Counted from the stretch's first letter, positions 19,936-32,707 are shown. The stretch: DNA of 64,000 nucleotides from Promethearchaeota archaeon (GCA_048940645.1 JBHLOI010000014.1:1-64000), one strand, 5' to 3'. The notes: generated from the letters alone by a model not told the origin. Numbers and translations: made by a program.

Positions 19936-21819
19936 ATGAAAGTTTTAATTATAAATAATTGCTTTAAAAGAAGTTTTAAATATCTTCCACGATTGCTAAA
20001 AAAGTTTCTTAACTTTTACACAAATCTCAAATTAAAGCAGATTATAAATTTTCTAATAAAAAAACATCCTAATGATATTCAAATTAAAGTTTTAAATGTT
20101 GATTATGAGAAATTAAATCTTAATAAAAACATAGAGTTTATTTCTCTTTCAAATTTTAGATTAAATTTAGATCGAGATAAATATGTCAACCTTAGAGATA
20201 AAATTATAAATGCTACTAAACAGAATTTAAGCAAATTCTTTAATAATATACAAACTTTAAAAAATCTTAGTTACAAAGGAATTTCTATTGCTAATGCGTT
20301 AGAATTTGAGTTAATCACATTATTTAATGAATATTTTGGGCAGTATGAGTTATTAAAAAGAAAAATTAAAACCAATCTTTTTGATACAATTATACTATTC
20401 AATTTTGAGTCTGATTCACTCTCTCTATTTCACTCTTTAAATTTTAACCATAACATTAAGGTATATAGTGATAATTTCTTAATCAGGATTCAAAGTATTT
20501 TGAAAATTATCAATATTACAACGTACCTTATCATTACATTTGGCTTATTTTTAAAAAGAGGCTTATTTAAGAGAATTACTCTTGATTATCCCTCAAATAA
20601 CTTAAAAAAGAAGCCTATTTTATTTTTTACAGATACTAAAAATCAGTTTTACAGCATTAAACCTGTATATGATGGTTTAATGAAATATAAAAACGAAGAT
20701 TTCATACCTCGTCAATATTCCTGTGAAAAATACCTCCATTTCAATACAATTCCAAAACTATTGAAATTTTTGTTAAAGATAAGAAAAATTATTATTAAAA
20801 ACAAGGAAAGCATTCTAAATGGTTTAAAATTCGAATCCTTTAATTTATATGGTATTTTGAAACTTTACTATGATTATGATCTTTTCTTTCGACTAATAAA
20901 TATATTCAATATGTTAAATAATCTTACAAATTTTATAGGGAACAACCCCCCTATTTTGGTTGTTATTTCTAATGATAGTTCAATTAGAGGGAGATTAGAA
21001 ATAGGATATTTTAAATTAAAAAATATTCCTGTTGTATATATACCTCATTCAGGAATCCTAATAATGGAAGAATTAGCTACTATGTCACAAGTAAGCTATA
21101 TTACGGTGCCTGGAGGAGCTGAAAAAAAACATCTCATTCATAAAGGTGAACCGAGTGATAAGATTGTAGTAACAGGTAGACCTCGTTATGAGCAGTTTCA
21201 TAAAGGAAAAATTGAGAAGTTAATAGAAGTTAAAGATATGTTTAATGCTAGAAAATATAACTTTAATTCAAAAAAGTTTACAGTATTATTAACAACTAAT
21301 CCAATAGATGAAAAGTCAAATGAAAAAATTATCTCTTCTGTAGTCAATTCATTAAAAGAATTAAATTTAATTGATAATTTAATCATAAAATTGCATCCCC
21401 GGGAAGATGGAAAAATCCATAAGAAGATTTTAAGAAAATTAGAAGTAAATCCATTAATAGTAAAGGATTATGACATTCTACAACTTATCAAATCAAGTAA
21501 TTTATTGTTATCAAGAGTTTCTAATACAGTAGTTGAATCAATGATAATAGGAACCCCCGTCATTTTGTTAGATTTTATAAACATAAATTTTATTTTTACA
21601 AGTAGATATGTATTTACAGAAGAAAAAGTTCTAATTAGAGTTAAAAATCAAAAAGAATTAAGAGAAACTTTACAGAAATTAATTGAAAATAAAGATTTTT
21701 ACAATAAATATTCAAAAGATCTTAATAACCTTTCGAAGGGATACTCATTTTATGATGAAAAACAAAACCCAACTGAAAAAATAATAAATTTATTTTTAAA
21801 GGAAATTAGAGATGATTAG
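19936..21819 (+). CDS. GT-B glycosyltransferase-like protein, candidate nonulosonic-acid transferase
   Basis: YIPHSG, VTGRPRYE, IIKLHPRE, SNTVVESMIIGTPVI; next to the NulO pathway. Confidence 0.6.
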   Translation: MKVLIINNCFKRSFKYLPRLLKKFLNFYTNLKLKQIINFLIKKHPNDIQIKVLNVDYEKLNLNKNIEFISLSNFRLNLDRDKYVNLRDKIINATKQNLSKFFNNIQTLKNLSYKGISIANALEFELITLFNEYFGQYELLKRKIKTNLFDTIILFNFESDSLSLFHSLNFNHNIKVYSDNFLIRIQSILKIINITTYLIITFGLFLKRGLFKRITLDYPSNNLKKKPILFFTDTKNQFYSIKPVYDGLMKYKNEDFIPRQYSCEKYLHFNTIPKLLKFLLKIRKIIIKNKESILNGLKFESFNLYGILKLYYDYDLFFRLINIFNMLNNLTNFIGNNPPILVVISNDSSIRGRLEIGYFKLKNIPVVYIPHSGILIMEELATMSQVSYITVPGGAEKKHLIHKGEPSDKIVVTGRPRYEQFHKGKIEKLIEVKDMFNARKYNFNSKKFTVLLTTNPIDEKSNEKIISSVVNSLKELNLIDNLIIKLHPREDGKIHKKILRKLEVNPLIVKDYDILQLIKSSNLLLSRVSNTVVESMIIGTPVILLDFININFIFTSRYVFTEEKVLIRVKNQKELRETLQKLIENKDFYNKYSKDLNNLSKGYSFYDEKQNPTEKIINLFLKEIRDD

Positions 21820-21964
21820 AAAATTGTTGTAAAACTATATGTGGTTATTATTCTTACTCAAATTTTATAATTTCCCCTATCTGTTTTCAATCCCTTTCGA
21901 AAAGTTAATTAGCTTATAGATATTTGGATTCTCTCTTGTTAAGAAACAAGAAATATTTTTAAAG

Positions 21965-22870
21965 GTGAAAATATTGATAATATTAATGAGAATTATCAAA
22001 AACTTTGGTTTTTATTTGAAATACTTTGTAAAGAGATTAATAACAAAAGCTATTCACATTTTTAGGATATTTACAGCACCAATAAGAACCCAACCTGACT
22101 TTATTATCATCGGAGCATGTAAAGCAGGAACGACATCTCTCTACAAATATTTAACAAAACATCCATCTATATTTCCTGCATTCGATAAGGAGCCTCAATT
22201 TTTTGATAATAATTATAAAAAGGGTAAGTTATGGTATAAATCTTTTTTTCCGTCTATAATATTAAAATATTTTATTAATAAGTTTACTAGCCATAGTTTT
22301 ATAACTGGTGAGGCATCACCCTATTATATTTTATATCCTCATGCTCCCAAAAGGATTGTTTCTATGCTTCCACATATAAAAATAATAGCATTATTAAGAA
22401 ATCCAGTTAATAGATCATTTTCTCATTATCATCACGCAGTTAAAGTAGGAGTGGAATGGTTAACATTTGATGAAGCTATAAAAAAGGAAGATATTAGAAT
22501 AAAAGGAGAGTTCGAAAAGATTTGTAAAGATGAGCAATATATGAGTCATAAATTTCCTGCTTATGCGTATTTAAATAGAAGCCTCTATTTGGATCAGATA
22601 ACGAATTGGCTAAGATATTTACCTAAAAAACAAATATTAATAATAAAAAGCGAAGATTTATTTAATTTTCCCCAGAAAATAGTAAATCAAATTTTTAAAT
22701 TTTTAAATTTGCCTAAATGGGAAATGATAGAATTTAAGCAATATCACTCTGAAACTAGAGATCAAAAGATGAATACCGATACTAGAAAGTTGTTAGTTGA
22801 CTATTTTAAACCATACAATCAACAATTATATGAATATCTAGGTAGAGATTTTAATTGGGAAAAAGAATAA
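21965..22870 (+). CDS. PAPS-dependent sulfotransferase (HS3ST/NDST-like family)
   Basis: 5'-PSB PDFIIIGACKAGTTSLY, KEPQFFD, GEASPYY, 3'-PB LRNPVNRSFSHY. Likely start is TTG 21974. Confidence 0.92.
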   Translation: MKILIILMRIIKNFGFYLKYFVKRLITKAIHIFRIFTAPIRTQPDFIIIGACKAGTTSLYKYLTKHPSIFPAFDKEPQFFDNNYKKGKLWYKSFFPSIILKYFINKFTSHSFITGEASPYYILYPHAPKRIVSMLPHIKIIALLRNPVNRSFSHYHHAVKVGVEWLTFDEAIKKEDIRIKGEFEKICKDEQYMSHKFPAYAYLNRSLYLDQITNWLRYLPKKQILIIKSEDLFNFPQKIVNQIFKFLNLPKWEMIEFKQYHSETRDQKMNTDTRKLLVDYFKPYNQQLYEYLGRDFNWEKE

Positions 22871-22884
22871 AATAAATTAAGCAA

Positions 22885-23427
22885 GTGATAAAAAATATGA
22901 GGTCTAACTTCCTTAAAACAATAAAAACAATCCTATTTAAATATTTTATACCCTCCTGGGAAACTAAAATAAACCTAAAGATAATTGCAGGTTATAAGGG
23001 TAAGCCAATTATTAGGCCCCGTTCTAATACACGACTTAATAGTAAAACATATTTAGGTGAAAATTGCCATATTAATGGAATGGTAATCCGAGGTGATGGA
23101 AAAGTAGTAATCGGAGATAATTTACACACCGGCGAAGAGATCTTAATAATTACAAGATATCATAATTTTGATAAGGGGAAAATGATACCCTATGATTCAA
23201 CTTTCATTTATGAGGACGTAATAATTGAAGATAACGTTTGGATAGGTTCTCGTGTAATAATACTTTCTGGGGTAACTATAGGAGAAGGCGCAATAATTCA
23301 AGCAGGTAGTGTAGTCACTTCAGACATCCCTAAATGCGGTATTGCGGGGGGGCATCCTGCTAAAGTTTTTAAGTATAGAGATATAGAACACTATGAAAAG
23401 CTTAAAAAACAGAAAAAGTTTTTTTAA
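22885..23427 (+). CDS. Hexapeptide-repeat O-acetyltransferase
   Basis: VIIEDNVWIGSRVIILSGVTIGEGAIIQAGSVVTSD...GGHPAK. Confidence 0.9.
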   Translation: MIKNMRSNFLKTIKTILFKYFIPSWETKINLKIIAGYKGKPIIRPRSNTRLNSKTYLGENCHINGMVIRGDGKVVIGDNLHTGEEILIITRYHNFDKGKMIPYDSTFIYEDVIIEDNVWIGSRVIILSGVTIGEGAIIQAGSVVTSDIPKCGIAGGHPAKVFKYRDIEHYEKLKKQKKFF

Positions 23428-23432
23428 ATAAT

Positions 23433-24623
23433 ATGGATTTAATTGGTCAGATTCTAAATTTTATTTTTTCAAAATGGTTTATCATATTTTTATTTATATT
23501 CATCATTTTATATCATATAATTCTTTTTTTCATTAGAGATAAACAATATATTAATGCTTTTAGAAAAAACATTAATCCTAAGGTTAATTCAATCGAAGAT
23601 TTAATCGACACTCCTTTAGTTAATGTTATAATCCCCGCTTGGAAAGAAGGAGAAATTTTTAAATTATGTATGCAAAAACTTGCAGAACTTAACTATCCCA
23701 AGTTAAAAATAATCATCAATGCGGGTGGAAATGAGGAAACTATGAAAATAGCTAATTCTTTCAATAAGTTTGAAAATTTTCTTATTATTGAACAAAAAGC
23801 TGGAGGTGGTAAAATCAAGGCTATAAACGATGCATTAAAATTAGTTGAAAGAGGAATTGTCTGTATTCTCGATGCTGATGTATCCTTAGGCTTTTCTACC
23901 CTGTTAACAATGTTATATAAAATTATAAATGAGAAAATAGATGTTGTTGTCGCAGAACTTAAACCAATAAAATCTATCTTAGGCAGTGATTTAATTATTT
24001 ATCTATTTATCAACAGAAATCCTAGATTTAGATCAAAATTTACTAATTATGGTCGCATTGAATTAACTCAATGTGCTTGCTTAAATTATAACGTGATTCT
24101 AAATATTGGTGAATTTACCGAGAAAAGATTATATGGAGATGGAAAAGCAATGGCTAATGATATTATAAATAAGAACTATAAAATCTATCAGTTATCTGAA
24201 CCCATTGCTGAAAGTTACAACTATCCTAATAAAATCTCAAAATTTATACGCCAAAATATTAGATGGGTAGAAAATGGATTTTTCTTCAATTTAAAGAAGA
24301 ATAAAATAAAAGTAATAGTAAAATTTCTGATTTTAATATTCTTTTCTCTGTATATAATTGCTTTTCCCTTTCTTATTTTTATTAATATATATCTAGTTTT
24401 AATTGGAGCTTCAATATTGATATATTTCTATTTAAAAAAAATTCGAGAAGTTATATTCTTCAAAAAAACAACGGATAAAGAATATTTTGGAAAATTAGGT
24501 GTGTTTTTTTACTTCAAAATCCTTCTCTATATTTACATAGAAGCACTTATGAACATTTATATCTTTTTCGAGTTGCTTATTTTTCAAGATAAGAAATTAA
24601 AGAAAAGAAAAAACATAGATTAA
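23433..24623 (+). CDS. Membrane GT2 glycosyltransferase with D,D,D,QxxRW signature
   Basis: N-terminal TM, VIIPAWKE, GKIKAIN, DAD, YGD, QNIRW, C-terminal TMs. Confidence 0.85.
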   Translation: MDLIGQILNFIFSKWFIIFLFIFIILYHIILFFIRDKQYINAFRKNINPKVNSIEDLIDTPLVNVIIPAWKEGEIFKLCMQKLAELNYPKLKIIINAGGNEETMKIANSFNKFENFLIIEQKAGGGKIKAINDALKLVERGIVCILDADVSLGFSTLLTMLYKIINEKIDVVVAELKPIKSILGSDLIIYLFINRNPRFRSKFTNYGRIELTQCACLNYNVILNIGEFTEKRLYGDGKAMANDIINKNYKIYQLSEPIAESYNYPNKISKFIRQNIRWVENGFFFNLKKNKIKVIVKFLILIFFSLYIIAFPFLIFINIYLVLIGASILIYFYLKKIREVIFFKKTTDKEYFGKLGVFFYFKILLYIYIEALMNIYIFFELLIFQDKKLKKRKNID

Positions 24624-24684
24624 ATCTACTATTTAAATAGAGAAAAAAAATTTTAACTTTCTTCTGGAAAATACTCGTTGATAA

Positions 24685-25461
24685 TTAGCTTTTAGTTTTT
24701 ATTCCAATTCTACCTTTATCATCTATACGATTTAATAATATTTTTATATTATTTTCTTTAAAGTATTTATCTATTGCTTCCTTTTGACCCTTCCAATAAC
24801 CATAATCATCAATTATAATAATTCCATTTAATGACAACTTTGGATAAAGATGGGTTATCTCGTGATATGTTGATTCAAATAAGTCTGTATCTAAACGTAA
24901 AAGTGAAATTTTTTCAGGAATAGTATTAGGTATGGTATGTTCAACTTTTCCCTTAATAAATCGAATATTTTCTGTTGGAAAATTAGTTGAATACAAATTT
25001 TTCTTAACCTCTTCTAAAGAAATTTCAAGCCATTTTCTAGCATCTCCTTTTTGAGTCTTTTTCCATATACTAATCGCGTCTTTATTATCGAATGCTCTTA
25101 AGTCTTTTTCAGTGGGCATGCTCATACCTTCATATGTATCATACAGATATAAGATTTTTTCTGCTTCATTCATTTTTAATAGAGTGAGAGCACTAATCAT
25201 CATACTCCCGCCCTTCCATACTCCACATTCAACAATATCACCTGGAATTTTATTATTTACAACATATTCTGTTGCTTTATACATTGCATACATTCTTTCC
25301 ACGGAAGTCATTGTAAATTGCTCAGTTTTTTCATAAATTTCTTTAAAATTAACATCCATATCGTAAGCAATTTTTTTTTTAAAGTGACTATTATAAAGAT
25401 TCGTTTTAATTACAGTATACCCGAACTTATTTAGCACTTTCTTAATAAGTTTGTTTATCAT
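24685..25461 (-). CDS. TylF/MycF-family sugar O-methyltransferase
   Basis: GDIVECGVWKGG, YDTYEG, LRLDTD, IIIDDYG. Confidence 0.92.
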   Translation of the reverse strand: MINKLIKKVLNKFGYTVIKTNLYNSHFKKKIAYDMDVNFKEIYEKTEQFTMTSVERMYAMYKATEYVVNNKIPGDIVECGVWKGGSMMISALTLLKMNEAEKILYLYDTYEGMSMPTEKDLRAFDNKDAISIWKKTQKGDARKWLEISLEEVKKNLYSTNFPTENIRFIKGKVEHTIPNTIPEKISLLRLDTDLFESTYHEITHLYPKLSLNGIIIIDDYGYWKGQKEAIDKYFKENNIKILLNRIDDKGRIGIKTKS

Positions 25462-25522
25462 AGGTTTCCTATCCCTTCATAATTTCTATATTCTATTTAT
25501 GTATAATTATTTTAATTAAATA

Positions 25523-26830
25523 TTAATTTTTGATGATGTTTAATGATTTTGCCCTCATATGTTTAGGAATTTCTTTTTTATATATCTTAAGGATTGTTGG
25601 TGCGATATTTTGATGAGAAATAATCCTTCTTTTCCCTGGTATAATATCTTTTCCGTAAGCCATAAAGAAACCGTGATTTTGATGACTAAAAGCCTCAGTT
25701 CTTCTCTTTAAGAATAGAGATGACTCTTTCGTAAAGATATATGTATCCTTAAGCGCAATCAGAAAATCTGGGTATCCAGGTAAGTTATATTCATAAAAAT
25801 TCTCAATATATTTGTCTTTTTTTAGAGTTTCTTTAATTTCTTCTTTTTTAATTTTATCCTCTCCAAAGAGAAATAAAGCCCCCATATTTGAAGTCAATTT
25901 TTGAATAAATGTTTGAGGGTTTTCTGCATCAAAAAAATCTAAATATCGATCTTTTTTCTTTTCAAGTGCCCTCTTCTTAGGATTTGATAATTTATCATAT
26001 ATTTTTTTTGAAATTTGAACATTAATGAATGGTCTAATTAGATCATAAAATTTTAATAAAATATTATTTAATTTTTTTCCTTTATCATTATTTAGATATA
26101 GAAGCTTCTTTTTTTCAAGCCATCTAGGAAAATGTAATACTTTTTTATAAAATTTGAGACCATGATCACTAAAAATGAGGATATTATCAAAATTATTCTC
26201 TTCAAAAATTTCTCCAAGAAAATTATCAATCTTTTGATATCCTAAATTCATAAAATGTAATATTTTTTTTCTATTTCCAACAACACGATGAGAAACAGAA
26301 TCGGGTACTCTAATTACATATATCATCAAATCAAAATCTTCTTTCATTTTGCGCAAAAATAAGTTCTTCTTTATATCAAACGCTTTAAATATTTCTTTTA
26401 AGTTTTTTCCTTCAACAATCCAATTCTTTTTTAAGATAAATTCTAATTCCTTAGGATAGCAAGATATTGTTGGTGATAAGATGCCACTTATCATTTCCCC
26501 GTTTATCCTCCAAGCAGGATAAGTACCTGGAACATTTAAAGAGAAAATTTTTAAATCTTCCATCGAAAGTATTGATTTATCTTTCCATACTTGTGAATTA
26601 AATATGCCTTTTGTTGGATGTATAAATATATAATACCCTAAATTTTCAACACTTAGTCCTGAAAATAAACATGGCCAAGATGGTATGGTAGTATGTGGGA
26701 TTGTTGAATTAATCGGCGCAGAGAAGCCATTTTCAATAATTTTTTTAAAATTTGGTAATAAATCTTTCTCTAATAATGGTTTGATGCTTTCAAAACAACC
26801 ACCATCCATACCAATAATAATATTTCTTAT
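25523..26830 (-). CDS. Alkaline-phosphatase-superfamily (NPP/phosphodiesterase-like) protein, paralogue 1; ATA start proposed
   Basis: IIIGMDGG, TIPSW nucleophile Thr, NVPGTYP, PDSVSH, SDHG. The frame opens at ATA 26830 directly after an in-frame TAA, 5 nt after GGTGGT (ORF track starts at ATG 26809). Confidence 0.82.
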   Translation of the reverse strand: MRNIIIGMDGGCFESIKPLLEKDLLPNFKKIIENGFSAPINSTIPHTTIPSWPCLFSGLSVENLGYYIFIHPTKGIFNSQVWKDKSILSMEDLKIFSLNVPGTYPAWRINGEMISGILSPTISCYPKELEFILKKNWIVEGKNLKEIFKAFDIKKNLFLRKMKEDFDLMIYVIRVPDSVSHRVVGNRKKILHFMNLGYQKIDNFLGEIFEENNFDNILIFSDHGLKFYKKVLHFPRWLEKKKLLYLNNDKGKKLNNILLKFYDLIRPFINVQISKKIYDKLSNPKKRALEKKKDRYLDFFDAENPQTFIQKLTSNMGALFLFGEDKIKKEEIKETLKKDKYIENFYEYNLPGYPDFLIALKDTYIFTKESSLFLKRRTEAFSHQNHGFFMAYGKDIIPGKRRIISHQNIAPTILKIYKKEIPKHMRAKSLNIIKN

Positions 26831-26835
26831 TTACA

Positions 26836-26841
26836 ACCACC
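26836..26841 (-). promoter_or_regulatory. Shine-Dalgarno-like GGTGGT preceding an ATA codon
   Basis: Resembles the archaeal SD core GGTGA; same element and spacing as at 29728-29733. Confidence 0.6.
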
Positions 26842-27258
26842 AAAATCAAAAGTATTTACAAAAGTAAACGATTTTTCTCTTAAAAGCTTTATCCTCAACT
26901 ATATCATTTAATTCTATTAGATCTTTATTGATTAAGCTTTTAATCTGTTCCGCTTTCCACGATAATTTGATATGTTCCTTTCTAATTCAAATTTTTGTTA
27001 TCTAAAGTTATTTCAAAATTTCAAAATCTTAAATATTTTAATTTTTTACTTATAACTGAGTCTTATTTTATAAAAGAACAATTGATTGAAAGATTAGTTT
27101 ACCCTTCAATTTAATTTTTATCTGAAAATTATTTCTTATACTCAAATTCATTTCTTTTTGAAATTATTTTATATAGAAAAAAGAAACTTAAAAGTCGAAA
27201 AAATATTGAATAATAATATAAATTCATAAACTTTACATCAGATAATCAGTAATATAAT

Positions 27259-28359
27259 ATGCTGTCGCACATATACAGAAAATTTTTTTATAACTTTATT
27301 GAATTCAAATTAAAACCAATTTTCTTAAAACATTTTTTATTTCTAGTTTTTTTTTATAACAGATATTTATTTCCCTTAAAAGCGGATTTTAGCACAATCT
27401 TTAATTATTACATTTTAAAAAGAAGGTTAAAACCTAAATTAAAAATTCCAGATACTCTTATAGTTGTTCCCTCAGATTTATGTAATGCAAATTGTGTGTT
27501 TTGTGCTTACCGACATCTGAGCTATGAAAAACAATTTTTGTCTTTTGAGTTGTTTAAGAAGGCTATAGATGATTATAAGAAGTTAGGTGGTAAATCCTTG
27601 ATGTTATCCCCTACAATTGGAGAAGATTTAATAAATAAAGATTTTTTTGAGTTTATTAAATATGCTAAAAAGCAAGATTTCCATGTAGCTATATTCACAA
27701 ATGGTATTCTCTTGAACACTAATGAGAATTATAAAAAAATTATTGAATTTGGAATTGATGATATATTTATTAGTACAGGAGATATTCTCCCTAAATTTGA
27801 AGCAGAGGTTTTTGGGATTCCGATTAAATTAGCTTTAGAAAAATTAAAAGGAGTAATCCATTTATTAGAATATAAAAAAGAAACAAAATCAAATATAAAA
27901 ATAACAATCGGTTTCAGAGCGAAAAGACCATTTAGAGAAATATGGAATACTATGAAGTACACGAAGTTTAAATATTTTTTTGACAAAAAATATTTCCATA
28001 TTCTATTCAAAACCTGTTATGATAATTGGTGTGGAAATATTACAGAAAAGGATTTATTAGGAATTATGAAATTAAGACGGAGTCCTAAACTTAAAAAGTA
28101 TCCTTGTTCTGCTCTTTGGAGCATTAGCGTATTGCCAAATGGAGATATTAGATTATGTGGATGCAGAATTAAGAAGAACGAATATGATGATTTAGTAATT
28201 GGTAATTTGAAAAACAATGATTTATTCGAAATTCTTAATAATAAAAAAGGCGAGGATGTTCTGGTAAATTGGATGAATGGTAAGCTAGTTGACGTTTGTG
28301 TAGATTGTATACGCTACGGATTCCCAAAAATAATTAAAAATAAAAATTTCCAGCTGTAG
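27259..28359 (+). CDS. Radical SAM protein with SPASM/twitch domain
   Basis: CNANCVFC; C-terminal YPC...NGDIRLC...IGNL...CVDC. Confidence 0.9.
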   Translation: MLSHIYRKFFYNFIEFKLKPIFLKHFLFLVFFYNRYLFPLKADFSTIFNYYILKRRLKPKLKIPDTLIVVPSDLCNANCVFCAYRHLSYEKQFLSFELFKKAIDDYKKLGGKSLMLSPTIGEDLINKDFFEFIKYAKKQDFHVAIFTNGILLNTNENYKKIIEFGIDDIFISTGDILPKFEAEVFGIPIKLALEKLKGVIHLLEYKKETKSNIKITIGFRAKRPFREIWNTMKYTKFKYFFDKKYFHILFKTCYDNWCGNITEKDLLGIMKLRRSPKLKKYPCSALWSISVLPNGDIRLCGCRIKKNEYDDLVIGNLKNNDLFEILNNKKGEDVLVNWMNGKLVDVCVDCIRYGFPKIIKNKNFQL

Positions 28360-28414
28360 ATTAAAAAATCGCCTAAAAAATATTATAATTCAAAATATAT
28401 TTTTAATCCATAAT

Positions 28415-29722
28415 TTAATCAAAATTATTATAATTCTTTTTATAAATATTCAGAGGGTTACCTTTCATAAAATCCATTTTATCTATACCAAATAGCTTTA
28501 TAATAGTAGGAGCAATATCAATATAATTAACTCTTTTTAGCTGATTAGATCTTATATTTTTCCCATATGCTATGAAAAATCCAAATTGTGAATGGTTGAT
28601 GGAATTTCTCCTCCTGGTAACAAAAAGAGAAGATTGATGATTGAAAATATACTTTTCTTTTAAAATGATGAATAAATCTGGAAATCCTTCAATATCCATA
28701 GATTCAACCTCTTTTACCCTTCTATCCATTTTTAATGATTCAATAATCATTTTATTTTTATTTTTATCTATTCCTTTTAAAAACAAACCCCCAACATTAG
28801 ATAAAAAATTTACAACAGATGTATCATTAACCTTATCTTGAATTGAAATTGAATCATCGATTATGTTCTTTAATATTGTTGTTTTCAGGAAATGATATTT
28901 TCTATAGTCGATCTTTATAAAAGGACGAAAATTATCATATATTTTTGTGATTAGGGTAAAAAATTTCCTCCCTTTAGCTTTATTAATATATAGTATCTTG
29001 TTCTTTTCTAACCATCTTCTCAAATTGAACTCATGACCATAGAATTTTAATCCATGATCACTAAAGATGAATAAATTATCAAAACTGTTATTTGCTAAAA
29101 TTTCACCTAAAAAATCGTCGATTTTCTTATATCCAAGAGAAATATAACTGTTTACCATATCTGTACTAAGATGAGTATGATGAGATAATACATCTGGCAT
29201 TCTAATCACATAACTCATTAAATCGAAATCTTCCCTTAACTTTCTAAGAAATAACCTTTTTTTAATCTCAAATGCTCTAAAAATCTCTGAAACCGTTTCA
29301 CCATCAATTATCCAATCATCTCTAATAAATGAGTTTAATTCTGAAGGAAAGCAACTAAGTTTAGGTGACATCATTCCTGTAATCATCTCACCATTTATTT
29401 TCCAAGCAGGATATGTGCCAGGTACATTTAAAACAAATTGTCTAATTTTAGGTATTGAAAATATTGATTGATCTTGCCATTGTTTAGAACTAAAAAGTCC
29501 CTTTTTAGGGTGGTCAAAAAAATAATACCCTAATTGCTCTGGGGTTAATCCTGAGAATAAACATGGCCAGGAAGGGATGGTTACAGGAGGAATAGTGACT
29601 TTTAGTTTTGCAGATACACCATCTTTAATTAACTTTTTAAAATTTGGTAATGAATTTTTTTGTAATAAAGATTCAATACCTTCGAAACAGCCTCCGTCTA
29701 TTCCTAGAATTAAATTCTTTAT
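28415..29722 (-). CDS. Alkaline-phosphatase-superfamily (NPP-like) protein, paralogue 2; ATA start proposed
   Basis: The frame is open 112 codons upstream of the ORF-track ATG (29386), encoding IKNLILGIDGGCFE...TIPSWPCLFSG...NVPGTYPAW colinear with paralogue 1. There is no in-frame ATG/GTG/TTG in that stretch. Confidence 0.85.
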   Translation of the reverse strand: MKNLILGIDGGCFEGIESLLQKNSLPNFKKLIKDGVSAKLKVTIPPVTIPSWPCLFSGLTPEQLGYYFFDHPKKGLFSSKQWQDQSIFSIPKIRQFVLNVPGTYPAWKINGEMITGMMSPKLSCFPSELNSFIRDDWIIDGETVSEIFRAFEIKKRLFLRKLREDFDLMSYVIRMPDVLSHHTHLSTDMVNSYISLGYKKIDDFLGEILANNSFDNLFIFSDHGLKFYGHEFNLRRWLEKNKILYINKAKGRKFFTLITKIYDNFRPFIKIDYRKYHFLKTTILKNIIDDSISIQDKVNDTSVVNFLSNVGGLFLKGIDKNKNKMIIESLKMDRRVKEVESMDIEGFPDLFIILKEKYIFNHQSSLFVTRRRNSINHSQFGFFIAYGKNIRSNQLKRVNYIDIAPTIIKLFGIDKMDFMKGNPLNIYKKNYNNFD

Positions 29723-29727
29723 GAGAT

Positions 29728-29733
29728 ACCACC
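29728..29733 (-). promoter_or_regulatory. Shine-Dalgarno-like GGTGGT preceding an ATA codon
   Basis: GGGTGGT-ATCTC-ATA; spacing identical to the paralogue. Confidence 0.6.
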
Positions 29734-29779
29734 CAACTAAAATTAATCTTATTTTAGTGTTTAAAAGATTATCCTTTTC

Positions 29780-30973
29780 CTATATTTTATTTTTTACAAT
29801 ATTTTCGATAAAATCTTTAAACATTTCAATTTCTTTTGAAATTGTATATGTTTGGAATACATATTTACTTGCTGAATTTTGTAATCGTTTAAATTTTTCT
29901 GGATTTTCCAACCATAATTTATATACTTTAAGGATTTTTTCTATAATTTCATCTTCTGACAATTCTTCAAGAAAAAATGCAAAATCTTTTCCTTTTAAGA
30001 TATCAATTGCCCCAAATGTTTTAGTAGAGATTATAATCGATTTTCCTGCTAATGCTTCAATAATTACTCTTCCGAAAGGTTCTCTTCGTGACGAGGATAT
30101 AAAAACATCACAATTCTTAAAGGCTTCAACTAAATCTTTATAATCTATATATCCAAATAATTTTATATATTGAGGAAACCTTCGTATTAAGTCTTTTGTT
30201 TCTTCTTCTAAAGGTCCAAATCCATATATTTCAAACTTTAATCTTAATTCATTGTATTTCTTAATAAATCCTTCTATAGCCTTTAATAATACTCCGATTC
30301 CTTTATGTTCGTCATTAAGAGCACCTGCATACATTATTATTAAATTTGGATTTCTTTTTTTCTCAAAATCTTCATTAAAGAAATTCTCGATTTCTAATCC
30401 TTCAACTATATGAAAAACCTTCTTGGGAGTATAAAAATTTTCTAAAAATATTTTTGCGTGTTGTGAAATTGTTTGATGATAAAATCTTCTTTTAAAAAGG
30501 GAGAGAAGGAGAATTGAAAGCCGATATTTTAGATTATATAGAGAAAATAATTTTTCACTGTGTAATGGCCTATGATATCCAAGTATAAACTTTGTTTTAG
30601 GGTTTAAAAGATATAAAAGCATAAATATCAAATTATTTTTAACATTACTAACAGATAAATATACTACATCATTCTTTTTGATTTTTTTATGTAAACGTAT
30701 AACTTCTAATGGATGTGGAAAACTAAATTGTCTATTAGCTATATTAAATGTAGCAAAATTCATTCTTTCAATTTTTTTAAACTTAAAACCCCTTTCTTTT
30801 AGTTTTTCAATTGTCTCACGTTTAGTTAAAAATTTATCTGCATAGTAGAGGTTTGTATGAAATAATGTAGTGTTATAGTATTTCTGTAATCCTGCTGCCA
30901 GATCCATGGAATATATTTCTCCACCTCTTCCATATTCGAGAGATACTGGAGAAAATATAAAGATATTTACCAT
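29780..30973 (-). CDS. GT4 (GT-B) glycosyltransferase
   Basis: GRGGE, YAGAL...HKG, DVFISSSRREPFGRVIIEALAG. Confidence 0.9.
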   Translation of the reverse strand: MVNIFIFSPVSLEYGRGGEIYSMDLAAGLQKYYNTTLFHTNLYYADKFLTKRETIEKLKERGFKFKKIERMNFATFNIANRQFSFPHPLEVIRLHKKIKKNDVVYLSVSNVKNNLIFMLLYLLNPKTKFILGYHRPLHSEKLFSLYNLKYRLSILLLSLFKRRFYHQTISQHAKIFLENFYTPKKVFHIVEGLEIENFFNEDFEKKRNPNLIIMYAGALNDEHKGIGVLLKAIEGFIKKYNELRLKFEIYGFGPLEEETKDLIRRFPQYIKLFGYIDYKDLVEAFKNCDVFISSSRREPFGRVIIEALAGKSIIISTKTFGAIDILKGKDFAFFLEELSEDEIIEKILKVYKLWLENPEKFKRLQNSASKYVFQTYTISKEIEMFKDFIENIVKNKI

Positions 30974-31243
30974 TTTTATAACTGCCTTTAAGTATTACTA
31001 AATAACTCAATTAAAGTTAAATATTTCAAATAAAACGCTCATAACTTTATTTTTAATATAAAACTTTCTTATCATCTTAGAGTTAAAATATTAAAAATTT
31101 AATTAAAAAAAAAATTTTCTAAAAATTTTTTCAGATTTCAATGTAAATTTTAAAAACTATTATTTCTACTTTTTAAACTCATCTTAGCATTTACCAAAAA
31201 TAAGAAAAAAAAATTTTTTTTATTTATTTAATTATATACTTAA

Positions 31244-32707
31244 ATGTTTGAAAATGAAACTGAAAAAACTGTTTTTCTAATAACTATTGATGCATTAAGA
31301 GCAGATCATTTAAAACAATATGGATATTCCTTAAATACAGCGCCATACCTAGATAAATTCATAAAACAAGGATCTACTTTTAATAATGCATACACAAATG
31401 GTCCTGCGACTCCATCTTCATTTTCTGCTATTTTTACATCGATCTTACCTCTTTTAAATGGTGGATATAGCCCCTTACCTAATGAAAAGGTTACTTTTCC
31501 TCAACTTTTAAAAAAAAAAGGGGTTTTCAACTACGGGATTCATAGCAATCCAAATTTAGGGGCTTTTTTCAATTACAACCGCGGATTTGATATATTTTTG
31601 GATGGAGAAAGATATAAAATTGAAAAAGATCGTCCAATTAAGAAAGGAATACGTTATCAATTGATTTATGTTATAAAGAAGATTTTCAATTACAAAAACT
31701 TCTCAAGAAAGTTAATATATAGATTTAAAGGTTTCAATCGATTTATAGATTGGGTTAGAACTAAATTCCCCTTTATTACAGACGTGTTGTTGCCATTTAC
31801 ACCAATGTCTTATAATGCCACATATATAATTAATAAAATAGTCTCTTTTTTGAACAACCATAAAGGACCACTTTTCATATGGGCTCATTTTATGGAAACT
31901 CATGGTCCATATAACCCTCCTTCGAAAAATGTATTAAATCTTAGAAAATTTGATATAGATTCTAATGAAAGGGAGTATTTATCCAAGGAAATTCTTGTAC
32001 ACCACCAAAAATATAAAATCTCAAGGGAGATATTAGACAAATTAATAGTTCTTTATGATGGAGAAATTAATTTCTGTGATGAAAATTTAAGAAATTTATT
32101 TGAATATATAAATTATCATTATAAGAAGAATACCTTGATTATAATTACCTCAGATCATGGAGAATCTCTTTATGAGCACGGACTTCTTGGGCACCAAGGA
32201 AGTGTTTATCAAGAATTATTAAGAGTCCCTCTTTTTATTGTTGAAAAAGGAGTAAGTACCAATTTAAAATATATTAAAGAGAAAGTACAATTAATAGATA
32301 TTGCACCCACAATATTAGATTATTTTGGGATAGAAATTCCAGAATGCTTTCAAGGGAAAAGCTTGATTCCTTTAATGAGGGGTGTTCCCCGAAAAGGGGA
32401 TGATTTTATTATTTCTGCTTGCTACCAAAAGAATAGAATGATGAAAAGAAATCATAGAGAAGGCTTTCTTCTAATATCTATTCAAAAAGCAGAATGGAAA
32501 TACATTTTTGATGAGGAACTAAATCAAGAATATTTATTTGATTTACACAAAGATCCTAATGAAAATACCAATTTAGTTAATATAAATAAGCAAAAAGCCA
32601 ATGAATTCAGATTAATAAAGCAATATCATCTAATTAGATCACAAGAAACGGATGAAAGATATAGAATTAGCTCTGCAATTAGTAAATTAAAGTCTAAATT
32701 ACGATAA
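31244..32707 (+). CDS. Sulfatase-like hydrolase/transferase
   Basis: ITIDALRADH, HFMETHGPY, YDGEI...D, TSDHGE, HGLLGH, DIAPTILD, YLFDL..DPNE; the active-site position reads ATPSSF rather than CxPxR. Confidence 0.85.
   Translation: MFENETEKTVFLITIDALRADHLKQYGYSLNTAPYLDKFIKQGSTFNNAYTNGPATPSSFSAIFTSILPLLNGGYSPLPNEKVTFPQLLKKKGVFNYGIHSNPNLGAFFNYNRGFDIFLDGERYKIEKDRPIKKGIRYQLIYVIKKIFNYKNFSRKLIYRFKGFNRFIDWVRTKFPFITDVLLPFTPMSYNATYIINKIVSFLNNHKGPLFIWAHFMETHGPYNPPSKNVLNLRKFDIDSNEREYLSKEILVHHQKYKISREILDKLIVLYDGEINFCDENLRNLFEYINYHYKKNTLIIITSDHGESLYEHGLLGHQGSVYQELLRVPLFIVEKGVSTNLKYIKEKVQLIDIAPTILDYFGIEIPECFQGKSLIPLMRGVPRKGDDFIISACYQKNRMMKRNHREGFLLISIQKAEWKYIFDEELNQEYLFDLHKDPNENTNLVNINKQKANEFRLIKQYHLIRSQETDERYRISSAISKLKSKLR

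What the first reader, a model, noticed from the sequence alone, without database searches (positions are those of the whole stretch)
25523..29733. Two paralogues both appear to initiate at ATA (AUA) behind identical SD elements
Seen: paralogue 2 has 112 conserved codons, including the metal-ligand Asp and nucleophile Thr, upstream of its first in-frame ATG, with no ATG/GTG/TTG back to the previous stop. In paralogue 1 the first beta strand (IRNIIIG) lies upstream of the ATG and starts right after an in-frame TAA. Homology begins at ATA in both (26830, 29722), each 5 nt after GGTGGT, and both then give exactly 435 aa. Canonical starts in this window sit 5-6 nt after (G/A/T)GTGA (1111, 21974, 40694, 42160), the same geometry. 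Inference: SD-directed AUA initiation conserved through paralogue divergence, which standard gene callers would truncate.
Basis: seen in the sequence. Interest (0 to 1): 0.8.

Follow-up and report, generated by a model that had tools for sequence, protein, structure and literature searches.

The report
Conserved AUA start codons in Asgard
Two sister enzyme genes of an uncultured Asgard (Loki-type) archaeon really do begin at ATA instead of ATG. Dozens of relatives keep that odd start, and it is part of a genome-wide habit of weak start codons that makes standard gene finders cut these proteins short.

Summary
It is not special to these two genes.

- **The genes:** both minus-strand NPP-like (PF01663) paralogues open at ATA (26830, 29722), 7 nt after a GGTG core. 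Neither has a usable ATG/GTG/TTG. Each gives 435 aa.
- **Orthologues:** among 41 distinct start contexts in related Promethearchaeota MAGs and metagenomes, the aligned codon is ATA 25, ATT 6, ATC 1, ACG 1. ATG or TTG sits there or next to it in 7.
- **Where constraint begins:** protein conservation starts exactly at that codon. An in-frame stop lies 0-3 codons upstream in 21 of 41. GGTG keeps its 7-nt spacing in 20 of 41.
- **Not an assembly error:** independent assemblies at 33x and 73x read ATA.
- **Genome-wide:** ATA/ATT/ATC/ACG/CTG behind an in-register Shine-Dalgarno are 2-3 fold enriched, in frame only. In 15 of 20 candidates tested, a Pfam domain starts upstream of the first canonical codon. 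These include Vps4, SucC, a GPN GTPase and folE2.
- **Scale:** roughly 4% of ORFs at minimum, perhaps about 10%.
- **aIF1:** the start-codon proofreader itself starts at ATT in all 28 same-genus genomes with a match.

Other agents of this scan reported the same phenomenon on other Asgard genomes. In the literature I searched I found only a single-gene remark. There is no proteomic or ribosome-profiling proof.

The parts
25523..26830 (-). Paralogue 1: NPP-like AlkP-superfamily phosphodiesterase (PF01663), 435 codons from ATA plus the stop
   Evidence: Translation. Pfam PF01663 E=4.8e-23, protein residues 4-388 on profile positions 2-341. 49% identical to paralogue 2.
26828..26830 (-). ATA, inferred start codon of paralogue 1
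   Evidence: An in-frame TAA lies directly upstream. It aligns with ATA/ATT/ATC/ACG/ATG/TTG of orthologues. No difference in independent contigs at 33x and 73x.
26836..26841 (-). GGTGGT Shine-Dalgarno-like element of paralogue 1 (GGTG core 7 nt before ATA)
   Evidence: The spacing equals the mode at ATG starts. GGTG is at a 7-nt spacing in 20 of 41 orthologue contexts.
26831..26833 (-). In-frame TAA immediately upstream of the paralogue 1 ATA; it excludes any upstream in-frame start
26807..26809 (-). First canonical ATG of paralogue 1 (codon 8, GMDGG), the start that gene callers take (428 aa)
   Evidence: P0003. No SD in register. This codon is Ile (ATA/ATT/ATC) in most orthologues. Starting here would delete strand beta-1.
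28415..29722 (-). Paralogue 2: NPP-like phosphodiesterase, 435 codons from ATA plus the stop
   Evidence: Translation. Pfam PF01663 E=1.2e-20. AF2 model mean pLDDT 84, residues 3-8 form a strand with pLDDT 95. Best PDB folds are ENPP6/7/5/4 and Xac NPP.
29720..29722 (-). ATA, inferred start codon of paralogue 2
   Evidence: No ATG/GTG/TTG between TAG 29782 and ATG 29386. Aligned with orthologue starts. Contigs of run X4 (75x) are identical here.
29728..29733 (-). GGTGGT Shine-Dalgarno-like element of paralogue 2 (GGTG core 7 nt before ATA)
29780..29782 (-). TAG stop of the upstream GT4 glycosyltransferase gene, in frame with paralogue 2, 19 codons upstream of the ATA
   Evidence: The 19 codons in between are not conserved in orthologues.
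29384..29386 (-). First in-frame canonical ATG of paralogue 2 (codon 113); starting here would remove D9 and T48
   Evidence: Invariant columns D9 and T48 in alignment A1.
29699..29701 (-). Second ATA (codon 8, GIDGG), the start used by the record's own annotation (428-aa product)
   Evidence: P0036 begins MDGGCFEG and is listed as the window's own protein. There is no SD before it, and beta-1 would be lost.

Best explanation
Both genes are intact, expressed-type genes for NPP-like metallo-phosphodiesterases in a glycan-modification cluster. Their translation starts at AUA.

Proposed mechanism:
- The small ribosomal subunit is placed by pairing of a GGUG(G/A) Shine-Dalgarno with the 16S 3' end, 7 nt upstream.
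- Initiator Met-tRNA (anticodon CAU) is accepted on AUA with a third-position mismatch.
- The protein therefore begins Met-(K/R)-N-hydrophobic strand-G-I/M-D-G-G.

This is one instance of a lineage-wide relaxed start-codon rule in this Promethearchaeota (Loki-type Asgard) genus and its relatives. There AUA, AUU, AUC, ACG and CUG behind an SD serve as start codons for at least about 4% of genes. The stringency factor aIF1 is itself encoded behind an AUU start. This suggests, but does not show, that aIF1 level sets how well such codons are used.

Shown here: the sequence facts, conservation, SD geometry, genome-wide enrichment and domain boundaries.

Inferred: that initiation occurs there, that Met is inserted, and that aIF1 autoregulates.
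For: 1. No canonical start is available. TAA is adjacent to the ATA in paralogue 1, and paralogue 2 has 112 conserved codons before its first ATG.
2. In 41 distinct orthologue start contexts the aligned codon is ATA 25, ATT 6, ATC 1, ACG 1 and ATG 4. In 3 more, ATG or TTG sits on the adjacent codon. Only one is odd (ACT). So changes stay within one-mismatch relatives of AUG.
3. Amino-acid pair identity is about 0.1 for codons -15 to -1 and 0.5-1.0 from codon 0 onward. An in-frame stop lies 0-3 codons upstream in 21 of 41.
4. GGTG sits at exactly a 7-nt spacing in 20 of 41 contexts, and AGTG or GAGG sits in register in others. This is the same geometry as at ATG starts.
5. In the tree, ATA is present in all deep clades across branch lengths up to 0.8 changes per site. 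The two window paralogues fall in different clades.
6. Distant bacterial homologues have ATG at the same position or 1-4 codons upstream. The Pfam profile starts at residue 4. Residues 3-8 are a confident beta strand.
7. Independent assemblies read ATA.
8. Genome-wide, in-frame near-cognates carry an in-register SD more often than other codons: OR 1.95 (p=8e-11), and OR 3.2 for strong SDs (p=3e-11). Off-frame controls give OR 0.6-0.7. At strong SDs the counts are ATT 41, ATA 31 and ATC 14 against ATG 142, TTG 54 and GTG 15, with the same spacer mode.
9. In 15 of 20 candidates tested, Pfam domains begin 1-36 residues after the near-cognate codon and upstream of the first canonical codon.
10. 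Vps4 orthologues in the genus toggle between ATC, TTG, ATG and GTG at one aligned codon.
11. aIF1 starts at ATT in all 28 same-genus genomes with a match.
12. Internal ATA codons align with Ile, not Met.
Against: - There is no direct evidence of initiation: no N-terminal peptides, no ribosome profiling, and no RNA run was listed.
- In organisms where it has been measured, AUA is a poor start codon. E. coli measurements give near-cognates a small fraction of AUG (bioRxiv 10.1101/063800; the magnitude is quoted from my own knowledge). Use for ordinary enzymes therefore needs an unproven relaxation of stringency.
- Neither the 16S rRNA nor the initiator tRNA is in this 90%-complete MAG, so the anti-SD and the anticodon are assumed.
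- Two orthologues have codons that are not near-cognates at the site: ACT in L073 and ACA in L066.
- For paralogue 1, some initiation at the ATG seven codons downstream cannot be excluded.
- PGAP chose other nearby non-canonical codons in two orthologues: CTG one codon upstream and ATT two codons upstream.
Confidence: 0.83

Rival explanations
1. Translation starts at the first canonical codon downstream: ATG codon 8 in paralogue 1 and ATG codon 113 in paralogue 2. The conserved upstream codons are untranslated or relics.
For: Gene callers and public databases annotate the genes this way. Paralogue 1 loses only 7 residues.
Against: - The upstream codons are under protein-level constraint, with synonymous variation across orthologues.
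- In paralogue 2 the truncated form would lack the invariant D9 and T48 and a quarter of the fold.
- The codon-8 ATG of paralogue 1 is Ile in most orthologues and has no SD.
- Strand beta-1 is modelled with pLDDT 95.
Confidence: 0.05
2. The genes are decaying pseudogenes that lost their start codons, or ATA is an assembly or sequencing error for ATG.
For: MAGs carry errors, and a G-to-A change is a common mutation in AT-rich genomes.
Against: - Full-length open frames with conserved catalytic residues occur in more than 30 orthologues.
- ATA recurs in 25 distinct contexts from many assemblies.
- Contigs from two samples at 33x and 73x agree.
- The same pattern appears in housekeeping genes.
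Confidence: 0.02
3. The N-terminus is supplied from upstream by recoding. For paralogue 2 this would be read-through of the in-frame TAG of the GT4 gene. More generally it would be a frameshift or a termination-reinitiation event from a short upstream ORF, so the ATA is an ordinary Ile codon.
For: - The GT4 stop TAG 29782 is in frame with paralogue 2.
- Short out-of-frame TTG-initiated mini-ORFs end at or next to both ATAs.
- ARAGORN lists a doubtful intron-containing tRNA with anticodon CUA.
Against: - Upstream context is not conserved. Orthologues have different neighbours, and stops (TAA, TGA or TAG) lie 0-3 codons upstream in 21 of 41.
- Amino-acid identity upstream is at background level.
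- The TTG of the mini-ORFs lies inside or 1 nt after the SD, which is too close to be used.
- The conserved element is the SD at start-site spacing.
Confidence: 0.03
4. AUA has been reassigned to Met in this lineage, as in some mitochondrial codes, so ATA is a regular Met/start codon.
For: It would make ATA starts natural. Only one tRNA with anticodon CAU was detected.
Against: - Internal ATA codons of both genes align with Ile (44-47%) and Leu. Met accounts for only 3-5%.
- ATT, ATC, ACG and CTG show the same start-site signal.
- tRNA detection is clearly incomplete in this MAG.
Confidence: 0.02

Closest known systems
Bacterial near-cognate start codons (E. coli infC and pcnB AUU) and IF3-controlled start-codon stringency
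   Same: - A one-mismatch relative of AUG sits at normal SD spacing and serves as the start.
- The fidelity factor's own gene uses such a codon: infC AUU in bacteria, aIF1 ATT here.
- All 64 codons have been measured as starts in E. coli (bioRxiv 10.1101/063800, found).
   Different: - In E. coli such starts are a handful of genes. Here they are at least about 4% of ORFs.
- They are kept across a whole gene family: ATA in 25 of 41 contexts.
- The machinery is archaeal/eukaryotic type (aIF1, aIF1A, aIF2), not IF3.
Eukaryotic near-cognate (non-AUG) initiation with eIF1 autoregulation through a poor start context
   Same: - aIF1 is the homologue of eIF1.
- eIF1 limits its own synthesis through a weak start site (Ivanov et al. 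2010, as cited in PMC6237735 and PMC4705826).
- S. solfataricus aIF1 discriminates against AUU in vitro (PMC4705826).
   Different: - Here the start is positioned by an SD, not by scanning.
- The weak element is the codon itself, not its Kozak context.
- Feedback has not been shown.
Near-cognate initiation sites in Haloferax volcanii ribosome profiling (PMC7261190)
   Same: About 30% of putative alternative initiation sites in an archaeon were near-cognate codons.
   Different: Those were alternative or extra sites on mostly leaderless mRNAs, and the authors set them aside. Here the near-cognate codon is the only possible start of conserved main ORFs.
'Rare ATT start codon' proposed for the Heimdall-group AtubA tubulin gene (PMC13394414)
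   Same: - It is an Asgard gene whose deposited protein lacked its first beta strand.
- An ATT behind a plausible RBS restores it.
- This is the same logic as for these two genes.
   Different: It is a single-gene remark in a methods section. It includes no conservation analysis, no genome-wide analysis and no ATA.
Nucleotide pyrophosphatase/phosphodiesterase (NPP/ENPP) enzymes of the alkaline-phosphatase superfamily (the protein itself)
   Same: - Pfam PF01663 scores above its cut-off.
- Invariant D9, T48, D177/H181, D222/H223 and H377.
- Best structural matches are ENPP6/7/5/4 and Xac NPP, with probability 1.0 and TM 0.5-0.64.
   Different: - Only 12-16% identity to solved NPPs.
- An extra helical insert at about residues 235-300.
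- No signal peptide was seen.
- The substrate is unknown. The genomic context suggests glycan or lipid-linked sugar modification.

Membership tests
SD-directed near-cognate (non-AUG/GUG/UUG) translation start | No canonical start codon between the upstream in-frame stop and the conserved N-terminus | tested here: met
   In paralogue 1, TAA is adjacent to the ATA. In paralogue 2 there is no ATG/GTG/TTG over the 131 codons from TAG 29782 to ATG 29386.
SD-directed near-cognate (non-AUG/GUG/UUG) translation start | The near-cognate codon aligns with Met1 of homologues that have canonical starts | tested here: met
   ATG or TTG occupies the same or the adjacent codon in 7 Asgard orthologues. ATG sits at the same site or 1-4 codons upstream in bacterial homologues. 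The Pfam profile starts at residue 4.
SD-directed near-cognate (non-AUG/GUG/UUG) translation start | Shine-Dalgarno element at the spacing used by canonical starts of the same genome | tested here: met
   The GGTG spacer is 7 nt at both genes and in 20 of 41 orthologues. The mode at ATG starts is 7-8 nt.
SD-directed near-cognate (non-AUG/GUG/UUG) translation start | Evolutionary substitutions at the site are confined to start-competent codons | tested here: met
   40 of the 41 contexts have ATA, ATT, ATC, ACG, ATG or (on the adjacent codon) TTG. The exception is ACT in L073. ACA in the weaker-scoring L066 is a second exception outside the 41.
SD-directed near-cognate (non-AUG/GUG/UUG) translation start | Direct mapping of the N-terminus or of the initiating ribosome | not testable with these tools
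   No RNA or ribosome-profiling run was listed. No proteomics tool is available.
Type I phosphodiesterase / nucleotide pyrophosphatase (PF01663, AlkP superfamily) | Profile match above the curated cut-off, with conserved metal ligands and a Thr nucleophile | tested here: met
   82.7 and 74.8 bits against a cut-off of 23. D9, T48, D177, H181, D222, H223 and H377 are invariant.
Type I phosphodiesterase / nucleotide pyrophosphatase (PF01663, AlkP superfamily) | NPP-type fold | tested here: met
   AF2 mean pLDDT 84, pTM 0.86. Foldseek top hits are ENPP6/7/5/4/1 and Xac NPP, E down to 2e-16.
Type I phosphodiesterase / nucleotide pyrophosphatase (PF01663, AlkP superfamily) | Phosphodiesterase activity | not testable with these tools
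   An enzyme assay is needed.
infC/eIF1-type autoregulation of a start-codon fidelity factor (considered for aIF1 of this genome) | The factor's own gene has a weak start that the factor discriminates against | tested here: met
   aIF1 opens at ATT after an in-frame TGA, with no canonical codon before its zinc knuckle. ATT is found in all 28 same-genus genomes with a match, plus 2 paralogous copies. Discrimination of AUU by aIF1 is known only for S. solfataricus (PMC4705826).
infC/eIF1-type autoregulation of a start-codon fidelity factor (considered for aIF1 of this genome) | Demonstrated negative feedback of factor level on its own translation | not testable with these tools
   Reporter or in-vitro translation experiments are needed.
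Variant genetic code with AUA = Met | Internal AUA codons align with Met in homologues | tested here: not met
   Internal ATA codons align with Ile 44-47% and Met 3-5%.

The most novel reading that the evidence does not exclude
Loki-type Asgard archaea run translation initiation at a deliberately low, tunable stringency. A sizeable set of genes, perhaps one in ten, is placed behind AUA/AUU/AUC/ACG/CUG start codons. That set includes cell-biology genes such as Vps4, small GTPases and GPN-loop GTPases. aIF1 is itself behind an AUU or AUA start in many Asgard lineages, so it would act as an autoregulated rheostat that co-regulates this whole set. On this reading the eukaryotic system, in which eIF1 sets stringency and represses itself through a weak start, would predate eukaryotes.
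Probability: 0.3. Interest if true: 0.88.

Novelty: new variant of a known kind. Interest (0 to 1): 0.72.

Why it matters
1. **Annotation.** Standard gene callers (ATG/GTG/TTG only) truncate or mis-start a noticeable share of Asgard proteins. For this family most database entries lack the N-terminus. This affects structure prediction, expression constructs and the inventory of eukaryote-like proteins. Here a Ras-TIR protein, a RagA-like GTPase, a GPN-loop GTPase and Vps4 all lose their N-terminal domain or P-loop if started at the first canonical codon.

2. **Mechanism.** A family-wide AUA start kept over deep divergence means AUA is either efficient enough or usefully weak in these cells. With aIF1 behind an AUU start, this gives a concrete and testable model for start-codon stringency control in the closest archaeal relatives of eukaryotes.

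3. **Testability.** A 400-kb sample of a complete one-contig genome from a sister family (G044) shows the same statistical signal and a candidate. If that genome belongs to a cultured strain, which I infer only from its size and single contig, the idea can be tested by proteomics or ribosome profiling.

Tried and rejected
- **Expression data:** no RNA holder was listed for the stretch, so nothing can be said about transcripts.
- **Initiator tRNA:** ARAGORN, with and without introns, found only one tRNA-CAU, with G1:C72 (elongator type). A pattern search for the initiator anticodon arm found nothing tRNA-like.
- **16S rRNA:** not present in the MAG. The anti-SD is therefore assumed from the empirically derived SD.
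- **Same-genus sample G008 (399 kb):** no significant SD/near-cognate association (OR 1.2), although single clear cases exist, such as UvrB behind ATT/ATA. Samples of this size are underpowered.
- **Negative control:** G077, a 49% GC Asgard genome, gave OR about 1. So the statistic does not create the signal by itself. No non-Asgard AT-rich control genome could be loaded.
- **Start-stop mini-ORF or reinitiation idea** (TTG-TAA next to the ATA): dropped, because it is not conserved and the TTG lies within or next to the SD.
- **Read-through from the in-frame GT4 gene:** dropped.
- **AUA=Met code change:** rejected.
- **Literature:** searches for AUA/AUU/non-AUG starts in Asgard or Lokiarchaeota returned no systematic description.
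- **Look-alike stretches in earlier scan windows:** none.
- **Not attempted:** comparing aIF1 residues between lineages with and without near-cognate starts.

Full report
**What is there.**
The window (about 28% GC) is contig C1 of a 3.83-Mb, 126-contig MAG that is 90% complete. Database relatives are labelled Promethearchaeota, that is Loki-type Asgard. On the minus strand lie two paralogous genes of the type I phosphodiesterase / nucleotide pyrophosphatase family (PF01663; 82.7 and 74.8 bits). They are 49% identical over their full length. They flank a radical-SAM/SPASM gene. The surrounding cluster holds a sulfotransferase, a hexapeptide acyltransferase, GT2, a TylF-type O-methyltransferase, GT4, a sulfatase and an epimerase-like gene. 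This looks like a glycan-modification locus.

An AlphaFold2 model of paralogue 2 (mean pLDDT 84, pTM 0.86) matches ENPP6/7/5/4 and Xanthomonas NPP best. The bimetal-site residues and the Thr nucleophile are invariant in the family alignment: D9, T48, D177, H181, D222, H223 and H377.

**Check of the observation.**
- Paralogue 1 reads GGTGGT-TGTAA-ATA. The TAA inside that spacer is in frame and directly precedes ATA 26830-26828. The first ATG (26809) is codon 8, after the strand RNIIIG.
- Paralogue 2 reads GGTGGT-ATCTC-ATA (29722-29720). From the in-frame TAG at 29782, which is also the stop of the upstream GT4 gene, to the first ATG at 29386 there is no ATG, GTG or TTG. That stretch is 19 non-conserved codons followed by 112 conserved ones.
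- From ATA both give 435 residues.
- At 2,081 first-ATG starts of the genome, the GGTG core peaks at a 7-8 nt spacer and GTGA at 6-7 nt. The two ATAs have a 7-nt GGTG spacer, so they sit at the modal distance.
- Logan contigs from two samples of the source study (33x and 73-75x) cover both sites without any difference there. A miscalled ATG is excluded.

**Orthologues.**
Whole-genome searches of 60 relatives and of all 42 genomes of the genus found the family. So did pattern scans of species-representative genomes and metagenomes. I projected the N-terminal alignment onto DNA and removed duplicates, which left 41 distinct start contexts of the close Asgard family.
- The aligned codon is ATA in 25, ATT in 6, ATC in 1, ACG in 1 and ATG in 4.
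- In three more, ATG or TTG lies on the adjacent codon.
- One is odd (ACT, L073). A weaker-scoring locus outside the 41 (L066) has ACA directly after TAA.
- So changes at this site stay almost entirely within the one-mismatch neighbours of AUG.
- Amino-acid pair identity is 0.05-0.24 for the 15 codons upstream and jumps to 0.5-1.0 from codon 0 onward.
- The only conserved upstream nucleotides are GGTG at -11 to -8. The spacer is exactly 7 in 20 of 41 and 6-8 in 24. AGTG(A) or GAGG sits in register in several others.
- An in-frame stop lies 0-3 codons upstream in 21 of 41, and directly adjacent in 8.
- Distant bacterial homologues carry ATG at the same position or 1-4 codons upstream.
- In a maximum-likelihood tree of 34 full-length members, ATA occurs in all three deep clades. 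The two window paralogues fall in different clades. At least 12 changes of codon state are scattered at the tips.
- A neutral third-position A would not survive this divergence. ATA, or at least start competence, is being kept.

**Why codon 1 and not another start.**
- The record's own annotation starts paralogue 2 at the second ATA (codon 8, product MDGGCFEG..., P0036).
- Callers start paralogue 1 at ATG codon 8 (P0003).
- PGAP started two orthologues at a CTG or an ATT one or two codons before the ATA (P0004 and P0066).
- None of these alternatives has an SD at working distance, and none is conserved.
- Starting at codon 8 would remove strand beta-1 (residues 3-8, pLDDT 95). That strand leads into the metal-ligand Asp of the GxDG motif.
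- Many database members of the family start at internal M/L/V with lengths of 300-420 aa. This is the footprint of gene callers that could not find a start.

- In the 3,994 stop-to-stop ORFs of at least 100 codons with an upstream stop, I took every in-frame codon lying upstream of the first ATG/GTG/TTG and at least 10 codons before it.
- ATA/ATT/ATC/ACG/CTG carry an in-register SD in 148 of 2,448 cases, against 475 of 14,867 for all other codons (OR 1.95, p=8e-11).
- For strong SDs of 5 nt or more the figures are 59 against 115 (OR 3.2, p=3e-11).
- The same count in the two other frames gives OR 0.6-0.7.
- At strong SDs, at or before the first canonical start, the counts are ATG 142, TTG 54 and GTG 15, against ATT 41, ATA 31, ATC 14, ACG 5 and CTG 5.
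- The near-cognates share the 7-nt spacer mode. The commonest control codon, AAA, peaks at 5 nt, which is the codon before a real ATG.
- Of 52 candidates I translated 20 from the near-cognate codon and scanned Pfam.
- In 15 of them a domain begins 1-36 residues after that codon and upstream of the first canonical start. Examples:
  - Ras domain of a Ras-TIR protein (CTG)
  - GPN-loop ATP_bind_1 (ATT)
  - RagA-like GTPase (ATT)
  - ferredoxin domain of an ETF-alpha fusion (ATT)
  - CCG/Fer4 proteins (ATA, ATT)
  - FlpD (ATT)
  - SucC ATP-grasp (ATT, 105 codons before the first canonical start)
  - nitroreductase (ATA, 97 codons)
  - folE2 (ATC)
  - Vps4 MIT domain (ATC)
- A codon-usage score separates coding from non-coding windows (86% against 7% above threshold).
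- It classifies about 55% of the 294 ORFs that have at least 30 open, canonical-free upstream codons as truly coding there. That is about 160 genes, or 4% of ORFs.
- Only 34% of proteins are expected to lack Met/GTG/TTG codons in their first 30 residues. The true share could therefore be near 10%. This extrapolation is rough.
- In the coding-like set the best-SD codon is a near-cognate in 40 of 88. In the non-coding-like set it is 7 of 56.

**Breadth.**
- Vps4 orthologues in the genus use ATC (8 genomes including this one), TTG (11), ATG (9) or GTG (2) at one aligned codon. Other families use ATG.
- 400-kb samples gave the following results:
  - A complete genome of a sister family (G044): OR 3.0, p=0.0035, about 4.5% of ORFs, and a MazF-like gene behind ATT.
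  - A 31% GC genome of another family (G091): OR 2.2, p=0.015.
  - A same-genus genome (G008): OR 1.2, not significant, but UvrB there starts at ATT/ATA after TAA.
  - A 49% GC Asgard genome (G077): OR about 1. This serves as a negative control for the method.
- The trait is therefore not confined to this species, and its extent varies.

**A lead on mechanism: aIF1.**
- The single SUI1/aIF1 gene of this genome (C43) has no canonical codon before its N-terminal zinc knuckle.
- The frame opens after a TGA that is part of AAAGGTTGTGA. Three codons later comes ATT-AAA-GAC-GAC-GAG-ATT-TGT.
- That ATT is present in all 28 same-genus genomes with a match and in two paralogous copies, while neighbouring codons vary synonymously.
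- Several other Lokiarchaeia genera have ATA at the aligned MPK start. Others have TTG, ATG or GTG.
- Across the phylum, near-cognate aIF1 starts recur in other genera of the same family (ATT) and in at least four further families (ATA or CTG aligned with ATG/GTG of relatives). Most families use ATG or GTG.
- aIF1 is the factor reported to discriminate against AUU in Sulfolobus (PMC4705826). So the arrangement resembles bacterial infC (AUU) and eukaryotic eIF1 (weak context). It suggests self-limiting synthesis that would fix a moderate stringency. This is inference and nothing here tests it.

**Rivals.**
- Downstream canonical starts, pseudogenes or errors, recoding from upstream and an AUA=Met code change are each contradicted by specific results (see the rival entries).
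- For the code change, internal ATA codons of both genes align with Ile in 44-47% of homologue residues and with Met in 3-5%.

**Literature and earlier scan notes.**
- Full-text searches found no systematic account of AUA/AUU/non-AUG starts in Asgard archaea.
- The nearest items are a methods remark on a 'rare ATT start codon' for a Heimdall-group tubulin (PMC13394414) and near-cognate alternative sites in Haloferax ribosome profiling (PMC7261190).
- First-stage notes on other pieces of this genome list many ATA/ATT starts. I checked three of them by Pfam (C42 ATA, C17 ATA, C24 ATA) and they hold. A fourth (MutY, C57) is borderline.
- Follow-up agents on other Asgard genomes reached the same general conclusion, including the aIF1 AUU start. 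So the scan has found this phenomenon before on other DNA.
- What this locus adds is the clearest family-level case for ATA: one start site followed through a duplication and about 40 lineages.

**Verdict.**
- The most likely mechanism is SD-positioned initiation by Met-tRNAi on AUA, under a lineage-wide relaxed start-codon rule (confidence about 0.83).
- Direct proof from N-terminal peptides or initiation profiling is missing.

Noticed in passing
G000:C43:35933-36271 (minus strand; L160:1453-1791); not in the window: The gene for aIF1 (SUI1), the start-codon fidelity factor, has no ATG/GTG/TTG before its zinc knuckle. It opens at ATT three codons after an in-frame TGA, behind AAAGGTTGTGA. ATT is kept in all 28 same-genus genomes with a match and in 2 paralogous copies. 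ATA or CTG takes its place in several other Asgard families, and ATG/GTG/TTG in most others. It resembles infC/eIF1-type autoregulation.
   Followed up: yes
G000:C60:96097-97305 (L159) and L161-L210: Vps4/CdvC starts at ATC here and in 7 sister genomes. The same aligned codon is TTG (11), ATG (9) or GTG (2) in other species of the genus, and ATG in other families. This is a clean example of start-codon turnover that includes a near-cognate.
   Followed up: yes
window 21965-21976 (+): The mechanical ORF list starts the sulfotransferase gene at GTG 21965, which is part of the AGGTGA ribosome-binding site. The properly spaced start is TTG 21974. This is a second kind of start mis-call to expect in this genome.
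   Followed up: partly
window 29699-29701 (-) and proteins P0036, P0004, P0066: The record's own annotation, and PGAP on orthologues, already use non-canonical starts for this family but place them inconsistently: the second ATA at codon 8, a CTG one codon upstream, or an ATT two codons upstream. None of these has working SD spacing.
   Followed up: yes
L066 and L073 (orthologue loci): Two orthologues carry codons at the start position that are not near-cognates. L066 has ACA directly after TAA, and close relatives have ATA there. L073 has ACT, with an ATT two codons upstream. They could be pseudogenes, sequencing variants, or starts shifted to a nearby ATA/ATT.
   Followed up: no
G008:C34:37635 (+) and G044:C1:1349291 (+): In a same-genus genome, UvrB opens at ATT/ATA right after TAA behind GGTG, 63 codons before its first canonical start. 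In a complete sister-family genome, a MazF/PemK-like gene opens at ATT behind GGTGA. I judged both by eye from conserved N-terminal motifs and did not scan them.
   Followed up: partly
window 19936-32707: The two NPP-like genes sit in a cluster of sugar-modifying genes: an epimerase-like gene, a sulfotransferase, a hexapeptide acyltransferase, GT2, a TylF O-methyltransferase, radical SAM/SPASM, GT4 and a sulfatase. This suggests a role in building or trimming a sulfated or methylated surface glycan.
   Followed up: partly
G000 whole genome (ARAGORN): Only 17-29 tRNAs are detected. They include a tRNA-SeC, and doubtful intron-containing calls with anticodons CUA and UUA. No initiator tRNA and no 16S rRNA are in the assembly. 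tRNA genes here probably carry unusual introns that ARAGORN misses.
   Followed up: no
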